Shown here: positions 14,954 to 53,545 of the stretch, in pieces
Numbering within the stretch: the stretch's first letter is position 1
Layout of the letters: every line of letters begins with the position of its first letter
NCBI GenBank assembly: GCA_023038255.1
Contig: CP082927.1
Span: forward strand, 18,436-82,435
Source of the DNA: Candidatus Peribacteria bacterium
Lineage (GTDB): Bacteria; Patescibacteriota; Gracilibacteria; Peribacterales; Peribacteraceae
Direction of reading: 5' to 3'
DNA: 64,000 nucleotides
Position numbers and translations under genes: made by a program
Notes under the pieces: model-generated
Seen by the model: the letters and a program-made list of their open reading frames with translations, nothing else
Databases searched by the model: none
Told to the model about the DNA's origin: nothing

Positions 14954-16756
14954 ATGGCTCTCACAGATGCAGAACTCGGGAAACTTCTTCTGGATTTAAG
15001 CTACCTGTCTGCAGAGGATGTGAAGCGTGCGGAGACGCATGCAAAAGCGCACAGCATGACGCTGAAAGATGCGCTGACAGAGCTCGATCTCCTCAGTCAG
15101 AATATTTACGAAAGTGCGGTCGCGGAGTACTACCACTTGTCCTACTACGATCTCTCCACAAACCCGCCGTTGCCGGAACTGGTGGACCTGTTGCCGGAAG
15201 ATATCGGCCGCAACTACAGCGCGATTGTCATCAAAAATGAGAAGGACAAAATTGTGGTTGCAACATCTGACCCGACAAACAAATTTCTGGAAGAAGCGGT
15301 ACGTCTGAACTTCGGTCAGACAATCGCGATTTTTCCGGACAAGGAGAGTACTGATAAAAAAACAACCTCACGCAAAGCGGCTGCGCATTTTTCTTTCTCC
15401 AAACAGAAGGTCGAAGAGCGCAAAAAGTACACAGGAAAAATTGAATTCGCGTACACCGCGCGCAAAGGTCTCGAAGCGTTTTTCGTACAGTACAGAAAGC
15501 CCTTGGCGACACGCTTCCAGCAGATTATCGATGCCAACAAAAAAGTCGCTCCGGAAATTCTCGAAGAAATTTTCAACGATGCCATCGGTCTTCGCGCATC
15601 CGACATTCACTTCGAACCGCAGGACAAAATTGTCGTTGTGCGCTTCCGCGTGGACGGCGTGCTGCACGAAGCGGGTCGCATTCCGAAGGAATACTACGAA
15701 GGTGTGGTGAACCGCATGAAGATTGCGGCGAACATGCACATCGACGAACACTTCATGGCGCAGGATGGTGCCATCCGTTACGACACCGGTAACGGCAACA
15801 CCATGGACATCCGCGTCTCTATTGTGCCGATTGTCGACGGTGAAAAGATTGTGCTGCGCCTTCTCTCCGAGTACGTGCGCTCCCTCACTCTCGCAGACCT
15901 CGGTTTCTCGGAAGAGCACCGTGCTGTGCTGGAGAAAGCCAGCCACAAACCGTTCGGTATGATCCTCACGACAGGACCCACAGGATCAGGAAAATCTACC
16001 ACGCTCTACGCGCTCCTGAAGCTCCGCAATCACCCGGACGTGAACATTTCCACCATTGAAGATCCGGTTGAATACAAAGTGCCGGGCATCAACCACATTC
16101 AGGTGAATACCGAAACAAACCTCACATTCGCAAACGGTCTCCGCGCTCTGATGCGTCAGGACCCGAATATTATTCTCGTGGGAGAAATCCGCGATGGTGA
16201 AACCGCATCAATCGCTGTGAACGCTGCGCTCACCGGTCACCTTCTCTTTAGTACACTCCACGCAAACGACGCGGTGACATCTGTTCCCCGTCTGCTGGAA
16301 ATGGGCGTCGAGCCGTTCCTTCTGGCATCCACTCTCGAAGTCGTGATTGCCCAGCGTCTCGTACGCCGCATCTGCCCGAACTGTCGCTATAGTTACTCTG
16401 TTTCGCAGAGCGACATCTCGAAACTTTTTCCGAATGCATCCAAGTTCTTCGAAAAGAAGAAGTCCACCCTGCTCTATAAAGGGAAGGGATGTGAGGCGTG
16501 CGGCGGCATCGGCTACTCCGGACGTATCGGTATTTATGAATTGCTCATCATCACACCCGAGGTAGAGGAACTGATTGTGAAGCGCTGTTCCAGTGCGGAG
16601 ATTGAAAAGGTTGCCCGCAGTAAAGGTATGCGTTCACTCTTTGAAGACGGATTCGACAAAATGCTTGCGGGCGCCACCACGCTCGAAGAACTGCTTCGCG
16701 TCGCAAGTCCTCCTTCTGCTCCTGCCCCGCATGTTAAAGAAAACAAAGCAGACTAA
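14954..16756 (+). CDS. pilB: type IV pilus assembly ATPase (GspE/PilB family)
   Basis: T2SSE N-domain, Walker A GPTGSGKST, CPNC..CEAC tetracysteine motif. Confidence 0.9.
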   Translation: MALTDAELGKLLLDLSYLSAEDVKRAETHAKAHSMTLKDALTELDLLSQNIYESAVAEYYHLSYYDLSTNPPLPELVDLLPEDIGRNYSAIVIKNEKDKIVVATSDPTNKFLEEAVRLNFGQTIAIFPDKESTDKKTTSRKAAAHFSFSKQKVEERKKYTGKIEFAYTARKGLEAFFVQYRKPLATRFQQIIDANKKVAPEILEEIFNDAIGLRASDIHFEPQDKIVVVRFRVDGVLHEAGRIPKEYYEGVVNRMKIAANMHIDEHFMAQDGAIRYDTGNGNTMDIRVSIVPIVDGEKIVLRLLSEYVRSLTLADLGFSEEHRAVLEKASHKPFGMILTTGPTGSGKSTTLYALLKLRNHPDVNISTIEDPVEYKVPGINHIQVNTETNLTFANGLRALMRQDPNIILVGEIRDGETASIAVNAALTGHLLFSTLHANDAVTSVPRLLEMGVEPFLLASTLEVVIAQRLVRRICPNCRYSYSVSQSDISKLFPNASKFFEKKKSTLLYKGKGCEACGGIGYSGRIGIYELLIITPEVEELIVKRCSSAEIEKVARSKGMRSLFEDGFDKMLAGATTLEELLRVASPPSAPAPHVKENKAD

Positions 16757-18677
16757 GTCTGCCGCCCCCGCCGGCATGCATCCGGGCTCCGTCAATCTTG
16801 TCGGCATGCTCCGCAAAATGGCGCCGTTTTTGTTCGCAAAAAAGAAAAAGGTACAGCCGCATGAAGTGGCTGCAAAAAGAACAGCAGCAAAGCCCGTACA
16901 TCACGCCAAAGCAAAACCGCATCCGCATGCGCTTAAGGGAAAAGAAAAAGAATCGAAGCCGAAAGGATCTCTGGTCGTTGCAAAGAAAGAGGAAAAAATG
17001 ACGGACGATCAGGTGGCTGCAACCAAAGAGGCGCTGATGGAAGAGGAAGGATTCATGCAGAAGGTTGTGAAAACCGGCCCCACGGCAACTATCACCACCC
17101 CCAAAAAGAGCTTGTGGTCGATGTTCGCTCGCGCGCCAAAAGAGGAGGATGCACTGTTGCCTGCTGTATTGGCCCCAGCGGCACAAGAAGAAAAGCTGAC
17201 ACAGGAGGAACTCAAAGATGATCAATTTTTGAAGCATGTCGAGCAGAAGCGCTCAGACAGCGTGGTCGGGACCGCAACCGACGATCCGGATGCGCCGCCC
17301 CCACCGGATTTGGGTATCCGCCCGAAGACTGCTCTGGAAGCGTTTGCGGGTGGAACGGAACAGGCGCCATCCCCACAGGCAGATGCGGCTCCGGTGAAAG
17401 GGAAAATCATCTCTGCTGCACAGCTGAAAAAAGAAGCACAGGATGCCAAAGAAGCGGCAACCCGCATTGCCAGGCAGACAGAAAAAGAGATGAAAGAAGA
17501 ACAGGAAAACAAAGAGGCGGGTAAAAAAGAGGAGCCTGCAAAAGATGTGCCTCCCCCCGTACCGCACGCCAAGCGTGTCGGGCCGCAGCAGTCGAATGGA
17601 TTCCAGAAATTCATCGCATCGGTCGGTCACTTCGGCATGGGAAAAGAGCGCATGCAGTTCATTGAAAATCTCGCCACCATGTTGAATGCGGGGCTGCCGC
17701 TCATTGATGCACTGCGCACACTGGGCATGGAAACGCGCAACAAAGGTTTCCGGAAAATCATTATCCGCATTACCGAAACGGTCGAAAACGGAACACCGCT
17801 ATGGCGTGCTATGGACGCGGAAGACTTGTTCTCTTTGCATGCAATCGCTCTTGTACGCATAGGTGAAGAGGCCGGTAACCTCGCCAAAAACATGGAGTAC
17901 CTCGCGGCACAGGAAACCAAGGATCATGAACTCGTGCAGAAAGTGAAAATGGCAATGATCTATCCGAGCATCGTCATGGTCATCATGTTTGTGATTGTGA
18001 TGGGACTCGGAATGTTCGTGCTCCCCAACCTCATCGGTGTGCTGACGTCGCTCAATGTGGAACTGCCGTTCATCACCCGTATGGTGATCAAATTCAGTGA
18101 CGTGTTCTCTGCATACGGACTCATCATCGCACCCGGATCGATTCTCGGTATGGGACTCTTTGTCGTTCTGGCGAAGTACACGGTACTGAAAGTGCCGGTG
18201 CAGTGGCTGGTGTTCCGCATCCCCGGAATTGGCTCCCTGCTGCGCTCTGCAACCATTGCGCGCTTTGGTGTGATTGTCGGCGGACTCCTGAAAGCGGGTG
18301 TGCCGGTGGTCGATGCCGTGCAGTCTCTGGTCGAAGTGACGCCGATTCTTGTGTACCGCAGACTCTACGAAAAACTGCGCGATCACATTACGATCGGCGA
18401 CTCGTTCTCGAAGAGTTTTGCCGCTATCAAGGGTAGTCAGAAACTGCTCCCCGTGTCTGTGCAGCAGCTTGTGGTGACCGGTGAAAAATCCGGAGCGCTG
18501 GCGGACATCATGTTGAAAGTGGCCGATATCTACGACAAAAAAGCGAGCGAGACCGCACAGAAACTGCCGGTTATTCTAGAACCGATTCTCCTGCTGATTA
18601 TCGGTACGCTCGTGGGTACGATTGCATTCGCCATCATCGTGCCGATCTACTCGATTGTCGGAAACGTCGGACGGTGA
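16731..18677 (+). CDS. pilC: type IV pilus platform protein (GspF/PilC family) with a long charged N-terminal extension
   Basis: The GspF-like region covers the last ~355 aa (from FQKFIASVGHFGMGKERMQFIENLATML). Start is uncertain: ATG 16731 or 16776. Confidence 0.8.
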   Translation: MLKKTKQTKSAAPAGMHPGSVNLVGMLRKMAPFLFAKKKKVQPHEVAAKRTAAKPVHHAKAKPHPHALKGKEKESKPKGSLVVAKKEEKMTDDQVAATKEALMEEEGFMQKVVKTGPTATITTPKKSLWSMFARAPKEEDALLPAVLAPAAQEEKLTQEELKDDQFLKHVEQKRSDSVVGTATDDPDAPPPPDLGIRPKTALEAFAGGTEQAPSPQADAAPVKGKIISAAQLKKEAQDAKEAATRIARQTEKEMKEEQENKEAGKKEEPAKDVPPPVPHAKRVGPQQSNGFQKFIASVGHFGMGKERMQFIENLATMLNAGLPLIDALRTLGMETRNKGFRKIIIRITETVENGTPLWRAMDAEDLFSLHAIALVRIGEEAGNLAKNMEYLAAQETKDHELVQKVKMAMIYPSIVMVIMFVIVMGLGMFVLPNLIGVLTSLNVELPFITRMVIKFSDVFSAYGLIIAPGSILGMGLFVVLAKYTVLKVPVQWLVFRIPGIGSLLRSATIARFGVIVGGLLKAGVPVVDAVQSLVEVTPILVYRRLYEKLRDHITIGDSFSKSFAAIKGSQKLLPVSVQQLVVTGEKSGALADIMLKVADIYDKKASETAQKLPVILEPILLLIIGTLVGTIAFAIIVPIYSIVGNVGR

Positions 18678-27771: not shown

Positions 27772-28147
27772 GTTCTGCTCTTTGATGATCGCCCCAATCC
27801 AGCCTCGGCTGAGATTGTGGGAGGAACGTCCGGACTCCACTGAAACGCCATGCGGCTAACGGCCGTCGCCTCGATATAATCCATAAAATCGGGGTAGGAC
27901 AAGTGCCACAGAGACGATCCCCTTTAGTGGGGAGTGAAACGCCACGGAGTACCGTGGATTGTGCAACACACGTGTATGCATAATCGGTAAACTCATGGTG
28001 GAGCAAGGAGGAATTGGGTTTTTGGAATCAGTGATGGTTTCGTCACTCCATCTACCCCTCCGCATCGAGGTATCCAGGCAACTGGTACCCCAGAGAGATG
28101 ATCATCCACTCGCAAGAGTGACAGAATCCGGCGTACAAGAGCAGGAT
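27772..28147 (+). ncRNA. rnpB: RNase P RNA, bacterial type
   Basis: Conserved GAGGAACGUCCGGACUCC, AAGUGCCACAGAGACGA and ACAGAAUCCGGCGUACAAG. P1 pairing of 27772-27782 with 28137-28147. Confidence 0.85.
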
Positions 28148-28153
28148 AAAGCA

Positions 28154-37464: not shown

Positions 37465-40221
37465 ATGGCTATTCTCGATTCCCTCAACAAACTCCTCGGC
37501 GACCCGAACGAAAAAGAACTCAAGAAAATCCGCCCTGTGGTTGCAGAGGTGAGAGCATTCGAAAAGCGTCCGGAGATCCGCGCCCTGACTCTGGCCGATT
37601 TGCCTGCAAAGACTGAAGAACTCAAAAAGAAAATTGCGGATGGCATGACACTCGATCAGATTCTGCCGGAGGCATTCGCCGTCGCCATCCGTGCCTGTGA
37701 ACTGCTGGTTGGCCACAAGGAAATAATCGGGCGTCAGGAATTTGTGTGGAATATGGTGCCGTTTGATGTGCAGATTCTGGGAGGAGCGGCGCTGCACAAA
37801 GGCATGATTGCAGAAATGAAAACAGGAGAAGGAAAGACGCTCGTGTCTACATTGCCGGTGTATCTCAATGCTCTCAGTGGCAAAGGCGTCCACGTTGTGA
37901 CGGTGAACGACTACCTCGCAAAGCGCGACAGCCAGTGGATGGGAGTGCTCTACAAGGCACTCGGTCTCACGGTTGGTGTCGTCGTCCATGGCATTAACAC
38001 CGAAGACCGCCGCGCCGCCTACGCATCAGACATTACCTACGGAACCAACAACGAATACGGGTTTGATTACCTGCGCGACAACATGGTGAGCAGCATCAAG
38101 CAGCAGGTGCAGCGCGGACTAAACTTCGCCATTGTGGATGAAGTAGACTCGATTCTCATCGACGAAGCCCGCACCCCCCTCATCATCAGCCAGCCGGCGG
38201 AGGAATCCACAACCAAGTACATGCAGTACGCGATGCTTGTAAAAAACCTGCAGGAGAATGTGCACTACACGAAAGATGAAAAGCAGCGTGCAGCGGTGTT
38301 GAGTGATGAAGGAATCAAGAAAATGGAAGAGCTTCTCAATGTGGAAAATATCTACACCGAGAAAGGATTCGAAGAAGTGCATCACATCGAACAGGCGCTC
38401 CGCGCGCATGCCATTTATCAGCGTGATGTCGATTACGTGGTCTCGAACAACGGCGAAATCGTGATCGTCGATGAATTTACCGGACGTCTGATGCCGGGCC
38501 GCCGCTACAGCCACGGTCTGCATCAGGCGATTGAAGCGAAAGAAGGGGTGGAAGTGCAGCGCGAATCAAAAACACTCGCAACCATCACGTTCCAGAACTA
38601 CTTCCGTTTGTACAAAAAACTCGCCGGTATGACCGGTACCGCAAAGACGGAAGAAGAGGAATTTGAATCCATCTACAAGCTCCGCGTACTCGTCGTGCCC
38701 ACACACCGCCCGATGGTCCGCGACGACCGTTCCGATGCCATCTATCGCACTGTGTCTGCGAAATTCAAAGCTGTCGCAAAGCTCGCAAAAGAGAAAAATG
38801 CACTCGGTCAGCCGGTGCTCATCGGCACAACATCCATCGAAAAATCCGAAGTCCTCTCGCTTCTCCTTAAGCAGGAAAATGTGCCGCACCAGGTGCTCAA
38901 CGCCAAGCATCATGAACAGGAAGCAGAGATTGTCGCCGGAGCCGGACAGAAAGGATCAGTGACGATTGCGACCAACATGGCCGGTCGTGGAACAGATATC
39001 AAACTCGGTGACGGTGTGCAGGACCTTGGTGGTCTCGCGATTCTCGGAACAGAACGTCATGAATCCCGCCGCATTGATAACCAGCTCCGCGGTCGCGCCG
39101 GACGCCAGGGTGATCCGGGAGAGTCTCAGTTCTTTGTGTCCATGGAAGATGATCTCATGCGTTTGTTTGGTGGTGACCGTCTGAAGATGATGATGGAACG
39201 TCTGAATGTGCCGGAAGATGTGCCGCTGCAAAACGGTATGGTCAGCCGCAGTATTGAAGGTGCGCAGAAGCGCGTGGAAGGACATCACTTCGACACCCGT
39301 AAACACGTGCTCCAGTACGACGACGTCATGAACAAGCATCGTGCGCTTATTTATAAGCGGAGGCAGAAGATTCTCGAGAAGATCGACGAACAGGTTATGG
39401 GTGATGGGTTATCGGTTATGGGAAACGAAAATGCTGATGGATCGTTGCATGAAGATATTCTGCGTTCTATCAAAAAAGAAGGACGCAATATTGTCATGAC
39501 ACATGCGGTCGGACAGGATCCGGATCAGTGGGCTATTGAAAAAATTGTCGATGAATTAAGTGGTCTGCATCCGCAGTTCAGAGAGATTCTCAGTGAAGCA
39601 AAACTGAAGACATTTGTGGAGCAGGAAAAAATGGCAGACGCCGTCGAGCAGGCGCTCGGATCGTTCTACGACATCAAGTGCAAAGAGAGTGGCGAAGACA
39701 TTGTGGCGCAGGCAGAACGCGTCATCACCCTGCGTTCCATTGATACGCACTGGATGGATCACATCGATGACATGGCACATCTGCGCGAACAGGTGGCCTT
39801 TGCCGGCTACGCCCAGCGTGATCCGGTCATTGAGTATCAGGACCAGGGCTTCCGCCGCTTCCAGAGTCTGCTGAATAACATCGAAAGCGCAATTGTGCGC
39901 GCCATTCTCCAGGTTGATTTTGCCCAGTTCGCGCCGCGCCAGATTCTTGAGCAGGCCGAACAGGATCTTGCAGGTCTCACCACGAACGAAGCACAGATTG
40001 AAGGAGAGCTCGACCAGACCGGTGTCGGTGCGCTCAATGTTCTGAATGAGAATAACCAGAACACGATGCTCGGGCAGGCGGTCCGTCAGCAGCTCGGTGG
40101 CCAGCAGCGCGTCACAACTCCGCAGGCAAAGCCTTTGTCATCGGAGAAAGTCGGACGCAATGATCTGTGCCCGTGCGGCAGCGGGAAGAAGTACAAGAAG
40201 TGTCACGGACAGGACGAATAA
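37465..40221 (+). CDS. secA: preprotein translocase ATPase SecA
   Basis: MKTGEGKT Walker [30 protein letters not shown]-terminal [14 protein letters not shown] zinc finger. Confidence 0.95.
39393..39423. repeat. heptamer array inside secA (GGTTAT GGGTGAT GGGTTAT CGGTTAT GGG)
   Basis: In frame; encodes [10 protein letters not shown]. Confidence 0.8.
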
Positions 40222-46767: not shown

Positions 46768-47355
46768 GTGACCCTGACTGTTCTCACAGGCCTTATTGGC
46801 GCAATCATTCTCGTTTGTGGTGCGGCCTATCCGCCCGAAAAAGTTACACATCCCGCGCGATCTGTAAAAAACTGGCTCTTTGCGGCTGGCGGTTTTTTGA
46901 TGCTTGCCTATTCCCTGCTGAATTATTTGGCGGGCGACACTATATTTTTTCTTATTCTCCAGATCTTCATTGCGCTGACCACGGTATTAATGATGCTGAA
47001 TACTCATGATCGATTCGACACGCCGCTTATTATGGGGATCGGCATTATCATGGTCCTCTGGTCTCTGGCGTTGTTTGAAGGCATCAACACGGTGTTTTTT
47101 GTGATCGGACTGTCCGGTATCGGACTGGGGTATGCACTTGATATGGGTACTCTGAAACGGGAAATAGCACTGACAACCGGCAGTGCCCTTATTTCCCTGT
47201 TTAGCTTTGCCCAGGGTGACCTGATTTTCTTCTGGCTCAATCTCTTCTTTGCGCTGTTTTCCGGATGGTATGCGCTGAGAATGCTGCGTGCCACGCGGAG
47301 AATCGCATACAATAAAACACCCCCTGTCATCCATGACAGAGGGGGGGGCGTTTAG
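46768..47355 (+). CDS. membrane protein with internal 3-helix duplication
   Basis: GTG start, six hydrophobic helices, repeated GD.IFF motif (GDTIFFLILQIF / GDLIFFWLNLFF). Confidence 0.5.
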   Translation: MTLTVLTGLIGAIILVCGAAYPPEKVTHPARSVKNWLFAAGGFLMLAYSLLNYLAGDTIFFLILQIFIALTTVLMMLNTHDRFDTPLIMGIGIIMVLWSLALFEGINTVFFVIGLSGIGLGYALDMGTLKREIALTTGSALISLFSFAQGDLIFFWLNLFFALFSGWYALRMLRATRRIAYNKTPPVIHDRGGGV

Positions 47356-47876
47356 TACGTCTCGGCAGGAGCGATAAATGACACCAGTACGTATCGTGCC
47401 TTTGGGTTGTGAGGATGCTCCACAACAGATATCCCTTCTTTTTTGAAAGTGGGGATATGGTCAATATCGCGAATGCTACTTGCGACCGACGCAAGTTCGT
47501 CGGGAGATTCACGCCAGGGTGTGGTGACTACGCCAAATGCAGATTGTTCCTCATCGGATCGAATTCGGAGGATGGAATCGATCAGGAGAGTGCCTTTCAT
47601 GGCCGTTTTGAATTCAATCGTTGCATCAGGCCCTTCGATGCGAATGGTCGGTTCCTCGGTTGTTCCTAGCTGTTCTTTGATGAGCTCAGCCCACGGCTCA
47701 ATTTCACTTCGAATGGGTTTTGCTTTGAAGTGGGCCTCCCAGCGCAGATCTCCTACGCGTTGGATGTTATGGACAGTGAGAGGCTCGCGAGGAGGAGCCG
47801 GACGACACAGGATGAGGATGGGAAATCCTACGCTGATGACTAGCAGGAACGACGCAATGGCGATCTTCTGAAACAT
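47352..47876 (-). CDS. membrane-anchored/exported hypothetical protein
   Basis: N-terminal helix MFQKIAIASFLLVISVGFPILIL. No known motif. Confidence 0.5.
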   Translation of the reverse strand: MFQKIAIASFLLVISVGFPILILCRPAPPREPLTVHNIQRVGDLRWEAHFKAKPIRSEIEPWAELIKEQLGTTEEPTIRIEGPDATIEFKTAMKGTLLIDSILRIRSDEEQSAFGVVTTPWRESPDELASVASSIRDIDHIPTFKKEGISVVEHPHNPKARYVLVSFIAPAETY

Positions 47877-47900: not shown

Positions 47901-47935
47901 AAAAAAACGCATACGTCAGACAACTGCCTGACGTA
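47901..47935 (-). terminator. intrinsic terminator after the exosortase-like gene
   Basis: 8-bp stem TACGTCAG/CTGACGTA. On the minus strand it is followed by UGCG and U7. Confidence 0.55.
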
Positions 47936-47980: not shown

Positions 47981-49030
47981 CTACCCCTTCTTTTTGCGTG
48001 GTACAGGGGCTTTTTTAATATGTGGTTTGCGCAATGGGGCCTTTTTTGGGGCAGGGGCTGGGAGGGTGACGTGCGGCAGGATAAGGCGCAGATAGAGCAC
48101 GCAGAACACAAAGAGCAGCAGGGAACCCGCAGCTCCGTGGAACAGGGTGAGTCCCATATCCGGAGCAAAAGAGCCGACAATCATAATCAGGACAATGCGC
48201 AGGATGTTTACAAGGAGGATCAGGAAACAGCCGAGCAATGCTGCCGCAGCGGCATGCGGAACAGAGATTGTCCGTTTTTTGGAGATCTTCCAGCAGAGAA
48301 ACAGGAAGAGTCCGAGAAACAGAACAATCGCGGAAAATTCCGAACAGCTGTAGCCAAACTCCGCAGTGAAGCCATTGTACGAAAGTGCCCATCGATTCAT
48401 AAAAGATTCCCCGCCCGGAAGGATATTCAGAATCGACTGCGTGACAGAGACCGTCCATGGTCCGATGTGATGATAGTACGCAGCTTCCGGCACTGAACCG
48501 AAGAGGTAGGCAAGAAAGATTGCCGCCAAAAACACCAGTGTGAGCCCGTGTCTGCGGATGAAGGAAGATGGAAAAAAGAGAAACAAAAGCGGAACCAGCG
48601 GAAGCAGGAGAATGGCATACAGGCTGGTGACCACAATCGCTGTATTGACCAGTGGGTCGCGATCAATGAATTGCGCGAGGAGGTTGAGTGAGTCATCGGA
48701 TGGGTGCGTGCAGACCCAGACGATAATGAGTGCCACACACAGCCCTGCCAGCGCCCCGGTTACTTCTAGTGCACTCGGTCGGGCAAGTGTTTTGAGAGCG
48801 CGGATGTGGTCATAGCTCAGAACCCCGAACATCCCAAGCAGACAGGCTAGAAGAACGAGCGGGAACGAGGAGATGCCACTCGGACCAATGGAGCCATTGG
48901 TAGAAAAAGGATCAAGGAGAGTGGAGTTAAACAGAAAGAAGAAGCCCAGAATACAGACGTAGAGCACGCACAACCGAAAGAAAAGCGATCTGCCGGAAGG
49001 AGTAAGCCGCTGCAGAAGAGGGCGTGGCAT
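47981..49030 (-). CDS. exosortase/archaeosortase-family membrane protein (candidate)
   Basis: Polytopic protein with ordered Cys (GYSCSEF), Arg (VNILRIV) and His (LFHGAAG) motifs, 49 and 20 residues apart, as in the EpsH family. Lys/Pro-rich tail. Start moved to ATG 49030. Confidence 0.55.
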   Translation of the reverse strand: MPRPLLQRLTPSGRSLFFRLCVLYVCILGFFFLFNSTLLDPFSTNGSIGPSGISSFPLVLLACLLGMFGVLSYDHIRALKTLARPSALEVTGALAGLCVALIIVWVCTHPSDDSLNLLAQFIDRDPLVNTAIVVTSLYAILLLPLVPLLFLFFPSSFIRRHGLTLVFLAAIFLAYLFGSVPEAAYYHHIGPWTVSVTQSILNILPGGESFMNRWALSYNGFTAEFGYSCSEFSAIVLFLGLFLFLCWKISKKRTISVPHAAAAALLGCFLILLVNILRIVLIMIVGSFAPDMGLTLFHGAAGSLLLFVFCVLYLRLILPHVTLPAPAPKKAPLRKPHIKKAPVPRKKKG

Positions 49031-49038
49031 GGAGAAAA

Positions 49039-50442
49039 TCAGAACAGTCGCTCGAGATCGTATCGTGAGAGAATGAAGGCTCCGCCAATGAAGAGCAGGC
49101 TTAAAGACCACCACGAGAAGAACGGAACCGCAGTGGGGCCGGAGACGTTTGCGTCAGCATCGACGAAGAGAGTGTAATACACCGTCATGCGCATGTGGTC
49201 GATGCGCACAATGGGAGTGCCGAATTCCTGCGAGACGCCCGCTGCAAACCCAAAGTTCGATGCGTTCACATCGCCCCCTCCCAGTGTTGCCCCCCACAGA
49301 TCCGCGGCGCCACCATACGTCGTGTAGGTGTTGATGCTTGGCGTGGCACCAATACCCTTATCTGTCCCTGTTGTAGATCCGTTTTTAATCAGCATAATCG
49401 TGTCTTCGCTCCAAGCTCCTCCGTTATTGTCCGACCAGTAAATTTCGGCCATCACACCGTCGATCGTGTCATTGCTTGCAATGGGAAAGCTAAAGTTCGT
49501 GGCATTCAGAAGCTGGCTCAGGCGGTCTGCTCCTGTGACAGCTGCCGAAGCGTATGTACCGTTTTGCGATGCGGCGTTGCTCGGGTTGGACCATGCAATA
49601 GTGCCGCCTCCACCGCTGCTAAAGGTGCCGCCGCTCAGAGGGCCGCTTGTGGGATCGATGATGTAAGGAAGAGACAGTTCTGCTGCGTTATAGACATACG
49701 TGTAAGACCCGTTTACCTGCTGAACGATGTGTACAGGCGTGGGTAGCAGTGTTTTTTCTGTATCAGTCAGAAACGGTTTCTCCGTGGAAAAGACCTGTTC
49801 CCCATTGGGGTCCACAAAGGTAAACACATCATCAGCGAGCGATGCAGTCAGCCCGTTCGATGGAACGATGCGGAACGAGAGATCGGCGGGATGGGCGGTG
49901 GAAACATGGATATTTTTTTGCACACTGTTCCCGGTTACATTCCAGCGGAGGATGGTTCCTTCGCCCAATTGATACGCAATGGTGGTGTCATTTTCAATCA
50001 CTCCTTTTGCATTCCCCGCAAAGGAGACGGTAAAGCTGTAGCCGTCCTGCCACACGGTGTAGCGCGGACGGAGGAGATCGAAACGGATGCGCACATTGTT
50101 GCTCAGTCGGTCAAAGACAAAGGTGTCACCCTCTTTTCGTCCGGTCTGTTCTGTGGGAATGAGTTGTCCGTAGATATCGCGTGTGAAAATGCCATCACTG
50201 GCGGATACACTCGCATATTTTCCCGGCGATACCTCGAAGGTTGCCGACCGTTCCGTTCTTTTGGTGATCACCTCCCGCGCGGTCTCCGGCATATGGAAAT
50301 CGGCGGGGTTCAGTACTGATGCGGACGGATAGGTTGGGGACAGCTCCGATGCATTTCCTGCAATGGACAGGAAAGGAATGGCAAAAGACAGCGCGCCGGA
50401 TACGTACAGAATTTTTTGAAAATGTGCGCGTGAAAACATCAT
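49039..50442 (-). CDS. secreted protein with C-terminal sorting-signal-like tail (putative cargo)
   Basis: Signal peptide MMFSRAHFQKILYVSGALSFAIPFLSIAGNA. C-terminus GPTAVPFFSWWSLSLLFIGGAFILSRYDLERLF (motif, TM helix, basic residues). Confidence 0.6.
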   Translation of the reverse strand: MMFSRAHFQKILYVSGALSFAIPFLSIAGNASELSPTYPSASVLNPADFHMPETAREVITKRTERSATFEVSPGKYASVSASDGIFTRDIYGQLIPTEQTGRKEGDTFVFDRLSNNVRIRFDLLRPRYTVWQDGYSFTVSFAGNAKGVIENDTTIAYQLGEGTILRWNVTGNSVQKNIHVSTAHPADLSFRIVPSNGLTASLADDVFTFVDPNGEQVFSTEKPFLTDTEKTLLPTPVHIVQQVNGSYTYVYNAAELSLPYIIDPTSGPLSGGTFSSGGGGTIAWSNPSNAASQNGTYASAAVTGADRLSQLLNATNFSFPIASNDTIDGVMAEIYWSDNNGGAWSEDTIMLIKNGSTTGTDKGIGATPSINTYTTYGGAADLWGATLGGGDVNASNFGFAAGVSQEFGTPIVRIDHMRMTVYYTLFVDADANVSGPTAVPFFSWWSLSLLFIGGAFILSRYDLERLF

Positions 50443-51817: not shown

Positions 51818-53545
51818 ATGAAACGCACCGCCCTCTTTCTTGGTTTACTCGCCCTTCCTGTCACGACGTTCGCACTGGATTTTTCCAATGCAACGAGTCA
51901 GTACAAAGATGCACCGTTCTCCACTGCGGAGACTGCAGGCATCAGCGTGTTGACCAATCTGACGGCTGTGACTGGTAACCCGGATGGGACCTTTGCGCCA
52001 AACCGCATCGTGAACCGTGCGGAGTTTTTGAAGATCCTCTTCAAGAGCCACCCCGATATTCTTGTCACGGACAATGACGCCTCCGCCTGTTTTCCCGATG
52101 TCCGCAAAAATGACTGGTTCAGCAGCTACGTATGTCTCGCAAAAACCAGGAAAGTAGTGGGCGGATATCCGGATGGATTCTTCCGTCCAGCCAACCCCGT
52201 GAACTATGCCGAAGCACTGAAAATGCTGTCCGAGCTCTACAGTCCGTACCCGGTTGTGTGTCTGGATGAAGGCGCACGCGGCGAATGTTCACAATACAAA
52301 ACATACGAAGACGGAGCCCCATGGTATGAGCAATACACTGATTGGGCTGTGTCCGAAGGTCTCATGATTCCTGGTGGACCGGCAATTGCTGCACCTCTGA
52401 CACGCGGACAGGTGGCGCGCCTCGCTGCATCATACCGCGCATGGTTCGATGGTGAATTGGCTCAGTACCGCGACTTTGAACGCGGCAAGACACCGGCTTC
52501 ATCCAGCAGCTCTGTATCGTCTCAATCATCAAGTTCCTCGTCATCGGTCTCCTCCTCTTCATCTGCATCATCCGTCAGCGTTTCCTCCTCTTCCTCGAGC
52601 AGTGCTGCCATCAAAGAATTCCCTGCAGCCAGCCATTTCCTGCTGACAGGCAAGCGCACGCCCGTGGTGATGGATGGTATCTTCACGAGTCAGTCCGAAG
52701 ACGGGTTGCTGCGTATTGTCGATATCACTCTGCGACAGGAAGTGAAATCCATTGCCAGCATGACGCTCGTGGATGAACAGGGAAAAGACATCGCAACGCT
52801 CACACTCGGAACAGATAACAATGCAGATCGTCGCAAGTGGCGCGCATCTCTTCCGGAGAGCAGCACCTACAAACTGCTGCGTGGTGTGCCTACGCTCCTT
52901 GGTGTGAAATACACGCTCTACGACCGCACGAGCGGCGGTGTGCCGAATGAGTTTGTGGATGGCGTGGAGAAGTTCTCCATCACCCTCAGTGGGGTGGCAA
53001 CCAATGCATCCATTCAGGTTGTGCCGGCAAATACACATTATCCTCAGCACCAGACAAGCGATGCACGCATAACAGGTCTCTCCAATGCAGGATCACCCAC
53101 TGATGTGATGACGCCTGGCACAAAGCGCCTGATCGGTAAGTTTGCGATCAGTGGCCAGACGGCAACAGGCGGCGTACTGCGCGTGACAGGACTGTCGTTT
53201 GTCAGAGAGTCCAATCACATTTCCCTCTCAAACATCCGCATCGGCGGTCCGGCAGAAGTGGAACAGGCAGATTGCGGGATTGATGCGCAAAGTAATCGCG
53301 TGACCTGTGGCGTGATTCCTGAAGGGTATCGCTCCGTCGGTGCCAGTGCACTGATTCTCTCTGTGTTTGCAGATGTCACCATCGACGAAGGGTTCCAGGA
53401 AGGCACGCTCCGGATCACGCTCCCCGGTCGCGGACAGATTGGACAGGTTGGTGCACTCAAATGGGAAGACAGCTCCGGTCGTTACAACTGGATTGAAGCT
53501 GACGTGCCGTTTGAAAGCGGGACGCTGTGGACGGTGAAGCCGTGA
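51818..53545 (+). CDS. SLH-domain surface protein with Ser-rich linker
   Basis: Signal peptide, SLH repeats (GNPDGTFAPNRIVNRAEFLKIL; FPDVRKNDWFSSYV...GGYPDGFFRP), poly-Ser block. Confidence 0.75.
   Translation: MKRTALFLGLLALPVTTFALDFSNATSQYKDAPFSTAETAGISVLTNLTAVTGNPDGTFAPNRIVNRAEFLKILFKSHPDILVTDNDASACFPDVRKNDWFSSYVCLAKTRKVVGGYPDGFFRPANPVNYAEALKMLSELYSPYPVVCLDEGARGECSQYKTYEDGAPWYEQYTDWAVSEGLMIPGGPAIAAPLTRGQVARLAASYRAWFDGELAQYRDFERGKTPASSSSSVSSQSSSSSSSVSSSSSASSVSVSSSSSSSAAIKEFPAASHFLLTGKRTPVVMDGIFTSQSEDGLLRIVDITLRQEVKSIASMTLVDEQGKDIATLTLGTDNNADRRKWRASLPESSTYKLLRGVPTLLGVKYTLYDRTSGGVPNEFVDGVEKFSITLSGVATNASIQVVPANTHYPQHQTSDARITGLSNAGSPTDVMTPGTKRLIGKFAISGQTATGGVLRVTGLSFVRESNHISLSNIRIGGPAEVEQADCGIDAQSNRVTCGVIPEGYRSVGASALILSVFADVTIDEGFQEGTLRITLPGRGQIGQVGALKWEDSSGRYNWIEADVPFESGTLWTVKP

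What the first reader, a model, noticed from the sequence alone, without database searches (positions are those of the whole stretch)
47981..50442. Exosortase/archaeosortase-like protein with one dedicated cargo bearing a novel C-terminal sorting tail
The two minus-strand genes are 8 nt apart, with an intrinsic terminator downstream (47901-47935).

Downstream gene (47981..49030): a polytopic membrane protein with the ordered catalytic-type signature of the exosortase/archaeosortase (EpsH) family. A Cys in GFTAEFGYSCSEF follows an extracytoplasmic loop. An Arg in LLVNILRIV lies 49 residues later, and a His in LTLFHGAAG lies 20 residues after that. A Lys/Pro-rich cytoplasmic tail follows.

Upstream gene (49039..50442): a 467-aa protein with a Sec signal peptide. 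Its C-terminus has the tripartite layout of exosortase substrates: short motif (GPTAVPFF), hydrophobic helix (SWWSLSLLFIGGAFIL), then basic residues (SRYDLERLF). It carries neither a PEP nor a PGF motif.

If the genome is indeed CPR-like, a dedicated sortase-like protein-sorting system with a new recognition motif would be noteworthy.
Basis: partly seen in the sequence, partly recalled or inferred. Interest (0 to 1): 0.75.

Follow-up and report, generated by a model that had tools for sequence, protein, structure and literature searches.

The report
Peribacterial exosortase with its own cargo
A membrane enzyme of the exosortase/archaeosortase family sits 8 bases behind the gene for a secreted surface protein whose C-terminal tail carries a sorting motif found in no current model library, so this is an unnamed branch of a known protein-sorting system, here in a CPR (Peribacteria) bacterium.

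Summary

**The enzyme.** The 349-aa membrane protein (47981-49030, minus strand) passes NCBIfam's exosortase/archaeosortase signature model TIGR04178 (32.2 bits, cutoff 23). It reaches the cutoff of no named Xrt, Art or Crt subfamily. In 46 relatives down to 21% identity, the only invariant columns are Cys229, Asn275, Arg278 and His298.

**The cargo.** The upstream 467-aa protein has a signal peptide, two beta-rich domains and the tail AVPFFSWWS + helix + SRYDLERLF.

**The link between them.**
- Ten of the 12 relatives' loci examined also carry the pairing: nine encode 1-3 proteins next to the sortase gene, and one is called as a single cargo-sortase ORF. The cargo ends in [V/A]-P-x-[F/L]-S-x-W-S, then a helix, then K/R 17-21 residues after the Pro.
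- The tail sits on unrelated passengers: a CBM-like protein, an NHL-repeat protein and others. Only the tail aligns between them.
- No NCBIfam C-terminal sorting (CTERM) model reaches its cutoff on it.

**Origin and status.** Relatives with organism names are all Peribacteria. NCBI already labels one orthologue "exosortase/archaeosortase family protein".

**Limits.** Cleavage, the fate of the cargo and the "single cargo" claim are untested. The result is a new subfamily and signal flavour of a known kind, not a new kind of system.

The parts
49039..50442 (-). Cargo gene: a 467-aa secreted two-domain beta-rich protein with a C-terminal sorting tail
   Evidence: ORF. Full-length orthologues P0005-P0008 share 89-40% identity. 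AF2 model has pLDDT 78 and is all-beta over residues 45-425.
50353..50442 (-). Predicted Sec signal peptide (about aa 1-30, MMFSRAHFQKILYVSGALSFAIPFLSIAGN). There is no Cys, so it is not a lipobox.
   Evidence: Hydropathy peak at aa 11-25. The AF2 model is disordered over residues 1-37. No dedicated signal-peptide predictor was available.
49648..50310 (-). Cargo N-terminal beta domain (aa 45-265), restricted to close relatives
   Evidence: Only P0005-P0008, P0010 and P0072 share it. No Pfam, NCBIfam or PHROG family matches.
49168..49647 (-). Cargo C-terminal beta-sandwich (aa 266-425), a widespread module with no Pfam model. It is CBM-like and resembles phage tail proteins.
   Evidence: About 30 homologues match this third of the protein only. 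Foldseek finds CBM22/CBM4/CBM15 with TM about 0.45 per target, and uncharacterised caudoviral proteins at E = 1.9e-10, TMt 0.68.
49042..49149 (-). Tripartite C-terminal tail (aa 432-467): linker NVSGPT, motif AVPFFSWWS, helix LSLLFIGGAFIL, then SRYDLERLF
   Evidence: This is the only segment that aligns with unrelated cargoes.
49105..49131 (-). Signature motif AVPFFSWWS (aa 438-446). Family consensus is [V/A]-P-x-[F/L]-S-x-W-S.
   Evidence: In 13 distinct tails: Pro 13/13, F/L 13/13, Ser 12/13, Trp 11/13. The first K/R falls 17-21 residues after the Pro.
49031..49038 (-). 8-nt spacer TTTTCTCC between the cargo stop codon (TGA) and the sortase ATG
   Evidence: In orthologous loci the two genes overlap by 1-4 nt or lie 2-12 nt apart.
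47981..49030 (-). Exosortase/archaeosortase-family membrane protein, 349 aa, about 8 TM helices, N- and C-termini cytoplasmic
   Evidence: TIGR04178 at 32.2 bits against a cutoff of 23. Hydropathy and positive-inside rule. AF2 model has pLDDT 92.2 and pTM 0.87.
48083..48349 (-). Signature region (aa 228-316) matched by TIGR04178. It contains the Cys, Asn, Arg and His.
48344..48346 (-). Cys229 codon: the predicted catalytic nucleophile, at the outer end of TM6
   Evidence: Invariant in 46 sequences. Position.
48197..48208 (-). Asn275-Ile-Leu-Arg278 in TM7
   Evidence: Asn275 and Arg278 are invariant in 46 sequences.
48137..48139 (-). His298 codon, at the outer end of TM8
   Evidence: Invariant in 46 sequences.
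48701..48709 (-). Thr108-His109-Pro110 at the outer end of TM3, a clade-specific conserved motif of unknown role
   Evidence: Invariant in the 6- and 10-sequence alignments. His and Pro are at least 90% conserved in 46 sequences.
47902..47935 (-). Terminator-like hairpin (10-bp stem, 4-nt loop) plus a run of seven T, 46 nt after the sortase stop codon

Best explanation
The two genes form a cognate sorting pair from an unnamed, so far Peribacteria-only clade of the exosortase/archaeosortase superfamily.

**Proposed mechanism.**
1. The cargo is exported through Sec by its N-terminal signal peptide.
2. It stays tethered by its C-terminal helix, with the K/R residue on the cytoplasmic side.
3. The [V/A]-P-x-[F/L]-S-x-W-S motif abuts that helix at the outer leaflet.
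4. The polytopic enzyme holds Cys229, Arg278 (with Asn275) and His298 at the outer ends of TM6-TM8. It recognises the motif and cuts the cargo there through a thioacyl-enzyme intermediate.
5. By analogy with archaeosortase A, the intermediate is then resolved either by an amine of a membrane lipid head group, leaving the beta-sandwich protein lipid-anchored on the cell surface, or by water, releasing the protein.

**Shown here:** family membership by the signature model; invariance of the Cys/Asn/Arg/His columns; predicted topology; tight gene coupling; and a shared tail on otherwise unrelated neighbouring proteins.

**Inferred:** that cleavage happens at all, the cleavage site, the acceptor and the final location of the cargo.
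For: - **Signature model.** TIGR04178 is passed by the window protein (32.2 bits, cutoff 23, residues 228-316) and by all 46 clade members.
- **Related protein and Pfam.** The 1071-aa relative P0072 passes Pfam PF09721 over model positions 32-254 of 254.
- **Invariant residues.** C229, N275, R278 and H298 are the only invariant columns in 46 sequences at 21-92% identity.
- **Topology and fold.** Eight hydrophobic helices are predicted, with Cys and His at the outer ends of TM6 and TM8 under the positive-inside rule. The AF2 model is confident, with pLDDT 92.
- **Adjacency.** Sortase and tail-bearing gene are consecutive in the window, L001, L002, L003, L004, L005, L006 (two cargoes downstream), L012 (three upstream) and L013. 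They are called as one ORF in P0072. Gaps range from a 4-nt overlap to 12 nt for upstream cargoes.
- **Unrelated passengers.** The tail sits on the window's CBM-like protein, an NHL-repeat protein at 111 bits, a PT-HINT protein and a repeat protein with no family. In pairwise BLASTP the best alignment is the tail itself. This matches the published criteria for a sorting signal and for dedicated systems (10.1101/2023.06.07.544157).
- **Specificity.** The pattern with a helix occurs 12 times in 828 ORFs, each time on a gene beside a sortase gene or in a tandem run beside one.
- **Constant geometry.** The first K/R lies 17-21 residues after the invariant Pro.
- **Mechanistic analogy.** For ArtA, Cys-173 is the active-site residue, and a thioester intermediate resolved by a lipid ethanolamine has been proposed (PMC7157517).
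Against: - There is no experimental evidence for cleavage or anchoring in this clade.
- Pfam PF09721 does not detect the window protein at E <= 1.
- The window tail's 'basic cluster' has net charge of about zero.
- Two loci (L010, L011) have no tail-bearing gene next to the sortase.
- The 13 tails come from related organisms, so they are not independent observations. Part of the motif may be conserved simply as the start of a membrane helix.
- The geometry of Cys, Arg and His in the model could not be measured, because the coordinates are not exposed.
- No solved exosortase structure exists for comparison.
Confidence: 0.8

Rival explanations
1. The enzyme is real but not dedicated. It serves many substrates scattered around the genome, and the neighbouring gene is only one of them (a many-to-one system like XrtA/PEP-CTERM or ArtA/PGF-CTERM).
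For: Relatives carry two (L006) or three (L012) tandem cargoes. Loci L010 and L011 have a sortase without an adjacent cargo, so cargo can be encoded elsewhere. Only 64 kb of a roughly 1.24-Mb genome could be scanned.
Against: In the window and in every flank available (about 110 kb of related loci), no tail-bearing ORF occurs away from a sortase gene. The tight coupling of one cargo to the enzyme recurs in most loci.
Confidence: 0.2
2. The enzyme acts as a plain release protease. It hydrolyses the tail so that the beta-sandwich protein is shed from the membrane (or handed to the wall or S-layer non-covalently), with no lipid or other covalent anchor.
For: Whether exosortases and archaeosortases are one-step transpeptidases is still unresolved, even for ArtA (10.1101/2023.06.07.544157). 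No lipid-synthesis gene of the PssA or PssD type lies next to the pair in any locus.
Against: The Cys/Arg/His triad is the one shared with transpeptidating sortases. ArtA substrates are lipid-modified, and their cleavage depends on PssA and PssD (PMC7157517). Neither observation is direct evidence for this clade.
Confidence: 0.3
3. The C-terminal helix of the cargo is only a permanent membrane anchor. The adjacency is conserved gene order with no enzyme-substrate relationship.
For: The window's close relatives share wider synteny: DUF1697, the SLH protein, OMP decarboxylase and ComM are all conserved in L004.
Against: In distant loci, sortase and tail-bearing gene are the only neighbours that stay together. 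The passengers differ completely while the motif, including an invariant Pro and a constant Pro-to-K/R spacing, is kept. A plain anchor needs no such motif.
Confidence: 0.07
4. The membrane protein has a non-proteolytic, EpsH-like role in exopolysaccharide or envelope biogenesis, unrelated to protein sorting.
For: Exosortases were first noticed in EPS loci (my own knowledge of the EpsH/PEP-CTERM literature). Sugar-nucleotide genes lie a few kb away in L006 and L012.
Against: No glycosyltransferase or EPS cluster flanks the pair in the window. The strictly invariant residues are exactly the proposed protease triad.
Confidence: 0.03

Closest known systems
Exosortase E (XrtE) / VPEID-CTERM dedicated system of Alphaproteobacteria (TIGR04162; Haft et al. 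2012 J Bacteriol, from my own knowledge, paper not held in the library)
   Same: It is a dedicated design, with the enzyme encoded next to its single target or few targets. The tail motif starts with V-P, followed directly by a helix and basic residues. TIGR04162 is among the best-scoring named models for members of this clade (12 of 46 match; best E = 1.3e-12) and for its more distant relatives.
   Different: All scores are far below the TIGR04162 cutoff (at most about 55 bits against 150). XrtE carries a fused protease domain (model length 516), whereas this protein is 349 aa with no extra domain. The motif is VPxFSxWS rather than VPEID. The host is a CPR bacterium.
Archaeosortase A / PGF-CTERM of Haloferax volcanii (experimentally studied; PMC7157517)
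   Same: It belongs to the same superfamily signature and has the same ordered Cys...Arg...His. The P-x-F core of the motif abuts the helix. Substrates are Sec-exported surface proteins of a cell bounded by one membrane and an S-layer. It provides the mechanistic model: Cys thioester intermediate, removal of the tail and lipid attachment.
   Different: ArtA serves many substrates and needs PssA and PssD. No ArtA-model hit was seen for this clade. ArtA's lipid is archaeal, and no lipid-pathway genes are linked here. No processing has been shown here.
Archaeosortase C / PEF-CTERM (TIGR03762, TIGR03024)
   Same: ArtC is, together with XrtX, the named model that most clade members touch (21 of 46). 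The tail of relative P0072 (AIPEFSAVGF...) gives a weak PEF-CTERM match (11.8 bits). The P-[x]-F core is shared.
   Different: Scores are well below cutoffs (ArtC cutoff 100, PEF-CTERM cutoff 23). The window tail gives no PEF-CTERM hit at all. ArtC is archaeal and has several targets.
Exosortase A / PEP-CTERM of Gram-negative bacteria
   Same: It shares the superfamily, the tripartite tail and a V-P start to the motif (VPEP).
   Different: PEP-CTERM systems have many targets, are linked to EPS loci and occur in diderm bacteria. The window tail lacks the second Pro and scores with no PEP-CTERM model.
Sortase A / LPXTG
   Same: It is a functional analogue: a Cys/Arg/His enzyme acting on a motif + helix + basic tail. 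The Peribacter genome paper reports a sortase A in these genomes (PMC4736985).
   Different: The fold is unrelated, and sortase A is a soluble domain on a single anchor. The LPXTG motif is separated from the helix by a spacer. No significant LPXTG-anchor match was found (7.6 bits against 15.9 for one relative's tail).

Membership tests
Exosortase/archaeosortase superfamily | Match to the signature model TIGR04178 at or above its curated cutoff | tested here: met
   32.2 bits against cutoff 23, E = 1e-7, residues 228-316. Matched by 6 of 6 and 46 of 46 relatives.
Exosortase/archaeosortase superfamily | Ordered, essentially invariant Cys ... Arg ... His | tested here: met
   C229, R278 and H298 (plus N275) are the only invariant columns in 46 sequences down to 21% identity.
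Exosortase/archaeosortase superfamily | Deeply membrane-embedded polytopic protein (about 8 TM) with the conserved residues towards the extracytoplasmic face | tested here: met
   Hydropathy and the positive-inside rule give 8 TM, N-terminus in, Cys and His at the outer ends of TM6 and TM8, and Arg in TM7. The AF2 model is helical with pLDDT 92. These are predictions only.
Exosortase/archaeosortase superfamily | Match to Pfam PF09721 (Exosortase_EpsH) | tested here: inconclusive
   The window protein has no hit at E <= 1. Relative P0072 passes (31.5 bits against 25.7). P0077 has a precomputed hit.
Exosortase/archaeosortase superfamily | Removes the C-terminal signal of its substrate (endopeptidase or transpeptidase activity) | not testable with these tools
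   Needs mutagenesis and mass spectrometry.
Named subfamilies (XrtA-XrtY, ArtA-ArtH, CrtA-CrtC) | Score at or above the subfamily model's curated cutoff | tested here: not met
   For the window protein the best scores are ArtH 18 bits (cutoff 200), XrtF 14 (cutoff 90) and XrtM 14 (cutoff 125). Across 46 members there are only weak, scattered hits to 18 named subfamily models.
Catalogued C-terminal sorting domains (PEP-, PGF-, PEF-, VPEID-, MYXO-, GVDTG-CTERM, LPXTG and others) | Tail scores at or above the model's cutoff | tested here: not met
   The full cargo gives no NCBIfam hit at E <= 1. Of seven tails scanned at E <= 10, none reaches a cutoff, and the window tail gives no hit at all.
Tripartite C-terminal sorting signal (criteria in 10.1101/2023.06.07.544157) | Signature motif, then a hydrophobic helix, then basic residues, at the extreme C-terminus, with the motif abutting the helix | tested here: met
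   All 13 distinct tails fit. Pro is invariant, and the first K/R falls 17-21 residues after it. The basic part is weak in the window (SRYDLERLF).
Tripartite C-terminal sorting signal (criteria in 10.1101/2023.06.07.544157) | Shared by proteins that have no other sequence similarity | tested here: met
   For the window cargo, the NHL-repeat protein (L005) and the L012 repeat protein, the best BLASTP segment in every pair is the tail.
Dedicated (one-to-one) sorting system | Enzyme and target regularly encoded by consecutive or nearby genes | tested here: met
   Found in the window and in 10 of the 12 relatives' loci examined: adjacent genes in nine, and one called ORF in P0072. Absent in L010 and L011.
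Dedicated (one-to-one) sorting system | Only one target per genome | tested here: inconclusive
   There is one tail in the 64-kb window. Relatives have 1-3 adjacent targets. The rest of the roughly 1.24-Mb genome could not be searched. The tail-profile search of the protein database returned nothing.

The most novel reading that the evidence does not exclude
This is the first protein-sorting and anchoring system of the exosortase type in the Candidate Phyla Radiation. It is a Peribacteria-restricted clade with its own Trp-containing signal (VPxFSxWS-CTERM). The system would covalently fix lectin-like or adhesin-like proteins (CBM-like, NHL-repeat and HINT-containing passengers) to the cell membrane. 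In these organisms that anchor would have to be a scavenged or isoprenoid lipid, because the published Peribacter genomes were reported to encode almost no fatty-acid synthesis genes. In some lineages substrate and enzyme would be fused into one polypeptide (P0072) that processes itself in cis.
Probability: 0.2. Interest if true: 0.7.

Novelty: new variant of a known kind. Interest (0 to 1): 0.5.

Why it matters
CPR bacteria are thought to live attached to other cells, yet little is known about how they display surface proteins. This pair offers a concrete, testable route.

- **A tag for surface proteins.** The tail motif flags which Peribacteria proteins are displayed. Those found here include glycan-binding-like and NHL-repeat proteins, which are plausible attachment factors.
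- **A compact test system.** Two genes could be expressed heterologously to ask whether exosortase-family enzymes are transpeptidases, and which acceptor they use.
- **Better annotation.** Two new HMMs, one for the sortase clade and one for the tail, would replace 'hypothetical protein' or the generic family label in these genomes.

The result does not change the known picture of the superfamily, which already contains many subfamilies with their own signal flavours and several dedicated systems.

Tried and rejected
- **Pfam.** Neither protein gave a hit. PHROGs gave nothing for the cargo or the downstream 174-aa protein.
- **Word-indexed homologue search with the sortase.** It found only 3 proteins. 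The full HMMER scan was needed to see the family: 389 representatives at E <= 1e-3 and 41 at E <= 1e-30.
- **Tail profile against the 5.8-billion-protein set.** The first two attempts failed on input limits. The valid run found nothing at E <= 10, because a 36-column profile is too weak at that database size.
- **Genome-collection scan.** The 4-sequence alignment found one locus, L005.
- **Metagenome scan.** It returned two weak, uninformative loci, L008 and L009.
- **Solved structures.** There was no match by sequence. Foldseek against the PDB gave no match better than E = 1.3. Superposition of the triad on a known structure was therefore impossible, and the model's coordinates are not exposed, so Cys-Arg-His distances could not be measured.
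- **P0072 DNA.** The DNA of the fused protein could not be fetched, so the fusion could not be verified.
- **Downstream 174-aa gene as a third component.** Rejected: it is conserved only in the close relative L004, and a terminator-like hairpin separates it from the pair.
- **Longer GTG start at 49114.** Rejected: it overlaps the cargo by 76 nt, and orthologues align from the ATG at 49030.
- **Haft et al. 2012.** The paper is not held in the library.
- **Literature searches.** Searches linking exosortase with CPR, Patescibacteria or Peregrinibacteria found nothing relevant.
Full report
**1. Observation**

The ORF scan shows two consecutive minus-strand ORFs: 49039..50442 (467 aa) and 47981..49114. 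The latter has an internal ATG at 49030, which gives 349 aa. Orthologue N-termini align to that ATG.

The cargo stop codon TGA is followed by TTTTCTCC and then the ATG, so the gap is 8 nt. A 10-bp hairpin at 47935..47912 followed by a run of seven T lies 46 nt after the second gene.

The last 31 residues hold 10 K/R. Every sequence-level statement in the finding is correct.

**2. The membrane protein**

Pfam finds nothing. NCBIfam's signature model for the exosortase/archaeosortase family, TIGR04178, matches residues 228-316 at 32.2 bits against a curated cutoff of 23. Hits to named subfamilies are far below their cutoffs: ArtH 18 bits (cutoff 200), XrtF 14 (cutoff 90) and XrtM 14 (cutoff 125).

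The word-indexed search found only three relatives. A full HMMER scan of 1.84 billion representatives with a four-sequence profile found 389 at E <= 1e-3 and 41 at E <= 1e-30. About 45 of these align over the full length.

In a 46-sequence alignment at 21-92% identity to the window protein, the only invariant columns are C229, N275, R278 and H298. H109 and P110 are at least 90% conserved. All 46 sequences pass TIGR04178. Their weak secondary hits scatter over 18 named subfamily models, with XrtX and ArtC at 21 each and XrtE at 12, and none comes near a cutoff. Ten relatives sampled from the weaker matches are likewise unnamed exosortase-family proteins.

Hydropathy and the positive-inside rule give eight helices with the N-terminus inside. 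Cys229 and His298 fall at the outer ends of TM6 and TM8, Arg278 lies in TM7, and the Lys/Pro-rich tail is inside.

AlphaFold2 with the 43-sequence alignment gives a confident all-helical model, with pLDDT 92.2 and pTM 0.87. No solved structure resembles it by sequence or by fold (best Foldseek E = 1.3). The triad could therefore not be superposed on a known enzyme.

**3. The cargo and its tail**

The cargo has a hydrophobic N-terminal segment without a Cys, so it looks like a Sec signal rather than a lipoprotein signal. Two beta-rich domains follow at residues 45-265 and 266-425 (AF2 pLDDT 78). A disordered linker and the tail complete the protein.

Only four proteins share the full length (89, 61, 45 and 40% identity). 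About 30 others share only the second domain. That domain has no Pfam, NCBIfam or PHROG model. It resembles carbohydrate-binding modules (CBM22, CBM4, CBM15) weakly. It resembles uncharacterised caudoviral and tail-fibre proteins more strongly (E = 1.9e-10, TM 0.68 per target).

**4. Linkage between tail and enzyme**

Thirteen sortase loci could be inspected in all: the window and 12 from relatives. The window and ten of those 12 encode the sortase together with protein(s) ending in the same kind of tail:

| Locus | Arrangement |
|---|---|
| window | 8-nt gap |
| L004 | 7-nt gap |
| L001 | 1-nt overlap |
| L002 | 4-nt overlap |
| L003 | 4-nt overlap |
| L005 | 12-nt gap |
| L013 | 4-nt overlap |
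| L012 | three tandem cargoes upstream |
| L006 | two cargoes downstream |
| P0072 | cargo and sortase called as one 1071-aa ORF on four contigs |

The eleventh case is the P0001/P0005 pair, which lies on one 24.7-kb contig; its adjacency was not read directly. L010 and L011 have no adjacent cargo. L014 and L015 start at the sortase gene and are uninformative.

The 13 distinct tails give this consensus: [D/A/P]-[V/A]-P-x-[F/L]-S-x-W-S, followed by a hydrophobic helix and then K/R.

| Position | Conservation |
|---|---|
| Pro | 13/13 |
| F/L | 13/13 |
| Ser | 12/13 |
| Trp | 11/13 |
| First K/R | 17-21 residues after the Pro |

The passengers are unrelated. The window protein is CBM-like, the L005 protein is an NHL-repeat protein (111 bits), one L006 protein carries a PT-HINT domain, and the L012 and L013 proteins are repeat proteins with no family. 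In pairwise BLASTP between the three classes, the best segment is always the tail (E = 0.029, 1e-4 and 7e-5).

Among 828 six-frame ORFs of at least 80 aa in the window and all loci, the pattern with a hydrophobic helix occurs 12 times. Each occurrence is on a gene beside a sortase gene, or in a tandem run beside one. The three other pattern matches have no helix.

A tblastn of the window's neighbouring genes against all loci shows that sortase and cargo are the only pair that stays together outside the close relative L004.

These are the attributes listed for C-terminal sorting signals and for dedicated systems in 10.1101/2023.06.07.544157. That list includes a motif abutting the helix with no spacer, as in signals cut by deeply membrane-embedded enzymes.

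**5. Is the signal known?**

The full cargo gives no NCBIfam hit at E <= 1. Seven tails were scanned alone at E <= 10 and none reached a cutoff. The window tail gave no hit at all. The P0072 tail (AIPEFS...) gave a sub-threshold PEF-CTERM match of 11.8 bits against a cutoff of 23.

The motif is therefore uncatalogued. Its design, V/A-P-x-F/L directly before the helix, is nonetheless the familiar one of VPEP (PEP-CTERM), PGF and PEF.

**6. Organism**

- The one hit in the species-representative genome collection is titled Candidatus Peribacteria bacterium.
- NCBI names P0036 'exosortase/archaeosortase family protein [Candidatus Peribacteraceae bacterium]'.
- NCBI names P0041 a hypothetical protein of Candidatus Peribacteria.
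- JGI labels several relatives 'exosortase/archaeosortase family protein'.
- The window's proteins lie on a contig of 1,239,242 bp. Cluster mates at 90% identity or more lie on one of 1,248,119 bp.
- The five complete Ca. Peribacter riflensis genomes average 1,248,071 +/- 217 bp (PMC4736985).

The CPR assumption is therefore supported. That paper mentions sortase A and S-layer proteins but no exosortase. Searches found no paper linking exosortases with Peregrinibacteria, Patescibacteria or the CPR.

The window also encodes an SLH-domain protein, type IV pilus PilB- and PilC-like proteins and SecA.

**7. Mechanism**

The best-supported reading has five steps:

1. The cargo is exported through Sec.
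2. It is retained by the C-terminal helix.
3. The enzyme recognises the motif at the outer leaflet.
4. Cys229 attacks near the motif, assisted by Arg278 and His298.
5. The tail is removed.

The fate of the new C-terminus is inferred only by analogy with ArtA. There, Cys-173 is the active-site residue, cleavage depends on PssA and PssD, and a lipid ethanolamine has been proposed as the nucleophile (PMC7157517). Whether the family performs one-step transpeptidation is unresolved even there. Release by hydrolysis therefore remains a serious alternative for the last step.

**8. Rivals**

- **Many-substrate system.** This cannot be excluded, because only 64 kb of the genome was available and relatives have up to three cargoes.
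- **Plain membrane anchor with conserved synteny.** This is unlikely, given the conserved motif on unrelated passengers.
- **Non-proteolytic EpsH-like role.** This is unlikely, given that the invariant residues are exactly the proposed triad.

**9. Comparison and novelty**

The protein is a member of the exosortase/archaeosortase superfamily. The signature model, the triad and the topology tests were met, and the Pfam model test was inconclusive. It belongs to none of the named subfamilies, and its signal matches none of the catalogued CTERM domains; both were tested and not met.

The closest analogues are the dedicated XrtE/VPEID-CTERM system (by design) and ArtA/PGF-CTERM and ArtC/PEF-CTERM (by motif core and envelope type).

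The superfamily is already known to contain many subfamilies with their own signal flavours, including dedicated ones, and annotation pipelines already give orthologues the generic family name. This is therefore a new variant of a known kind. It is of moderate interest, mainly as the first such system recognised in the CPR and as a marker of Peribacteria surface proteins.

**10. Limits**

- Nothing here shows cleavage.
- The tails come from related organisms and are not independent samples.
- The P0072 fusion may be an artefact of reading TGA as sense. Its W/G-rich stretch is suspicious and its DNA could not be fetched.
- The window's GC content (52.9%) does not match the 58.5% stated for Ca. 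P. riflensis. The exact species is therefore not settled.

Noticed in passing
P0072 (not in the window; contigs in ENA ERZ27296333 and Logan SRR14366772): A 1071-aa called protein joins three parts in one ORF: a cargo-like N-terminal region, the tail AIPEFSAVGF...RWVLRRK, and a full exosortase (PF09721, 31.5 bits). It is seen on four contigs. It also contains a striking W/G-rich stretch (WGWGWGRWGWGGWDGWWDGWW...). It is either a natural substrate-enzyme fusion or TGA codons read as Trp by the gene caller. The DNA could not be retrieved.
   Followed up: partly
window 51818-53545 (+); L004 16476-18218 and 4060-5814; L012 3845-4468; L015 3296-4312; L011 7826-9091: Homologues of the window's 575-aa SLH-domain protein, mostly carrying the SLH domain, lie within a few kb of the sortase gene in five loci whose sortases share only about 30-59% identity. 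This may be coincidence, since Peribacteria encode several such proteins, or a hint that the sorted protein relates to the S-layer.
   Followed up: partly
window 49168-49647 (cargo aa 266-425): This beta-sandwich domain of about 150 aa (AWSNPxNA ... ATNFGFxIP ... DLWG ... DVNxxxFG ... VDxxxxTVYY) has no Pfam model. It also occurs in Woesebacteria proteins, in proteins with the T9SS sorting domain PF18962, in PT-HINT proteins and in uncharacterised caudoviral proteins (Foldseek E = 1.9e-10). It looks like a mobile binding module that different lineages attach to different sorting tails.
   Followed up: partly
window 46768-47355 (+): A 195-aa polytopic membrane protein with no Pfam family. A 48%-identical homologue lies about 3 kb from the sortase gene in L011, where the sortase itself is only about 31% identical to the window's. 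It was not found in the other loci.
   Followed up: partly
window 47352-47876 (-): A 174-aa protein with an N-terminal hydrophobic segment lies directly downstream of the sortase, after the terminator-like hairpin. It is 47% identical and syntenic in L004 only. No family was found in PHROGs.
   Followed up: partly
window 48701-48709 (sortase Thr108-His109-Pro110): A Thr-His-Pro motif at the outer end of TM3 is nearly invariant in this clade. It lies outside the region covered by the TIGR04178 signature. It may be an extra substrate-binding or catalytic element specific to the clade.
   Followed up: no
L006 2618-3619 and 3661-4584: Two cargo genes lie downstream of the sortase in a Peribacteraceae MAG. 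One carries a pretoxin-HINT/intein-like domain (PF07591, 50.9 bits) in front of the same beta-sandwich and the tail APDLSTWALLLLLP...ERKG.
   Followed up: partly
whole window: The window's GC content is 52.9%. The species assignment is therefore uncertain.
   Followed up: no
window 14954-18677 (+), 27773-28150 (+), 37465-40221 (+): Type IV pilus or type II secretion ATPase (T2SSE) and platform (T2SSF) genes, a bacterial class A RNase P RNA (143 bits) and SecA. These are ordinary context genes, consistent with the published Peribacter gene content.
   Followed up: no
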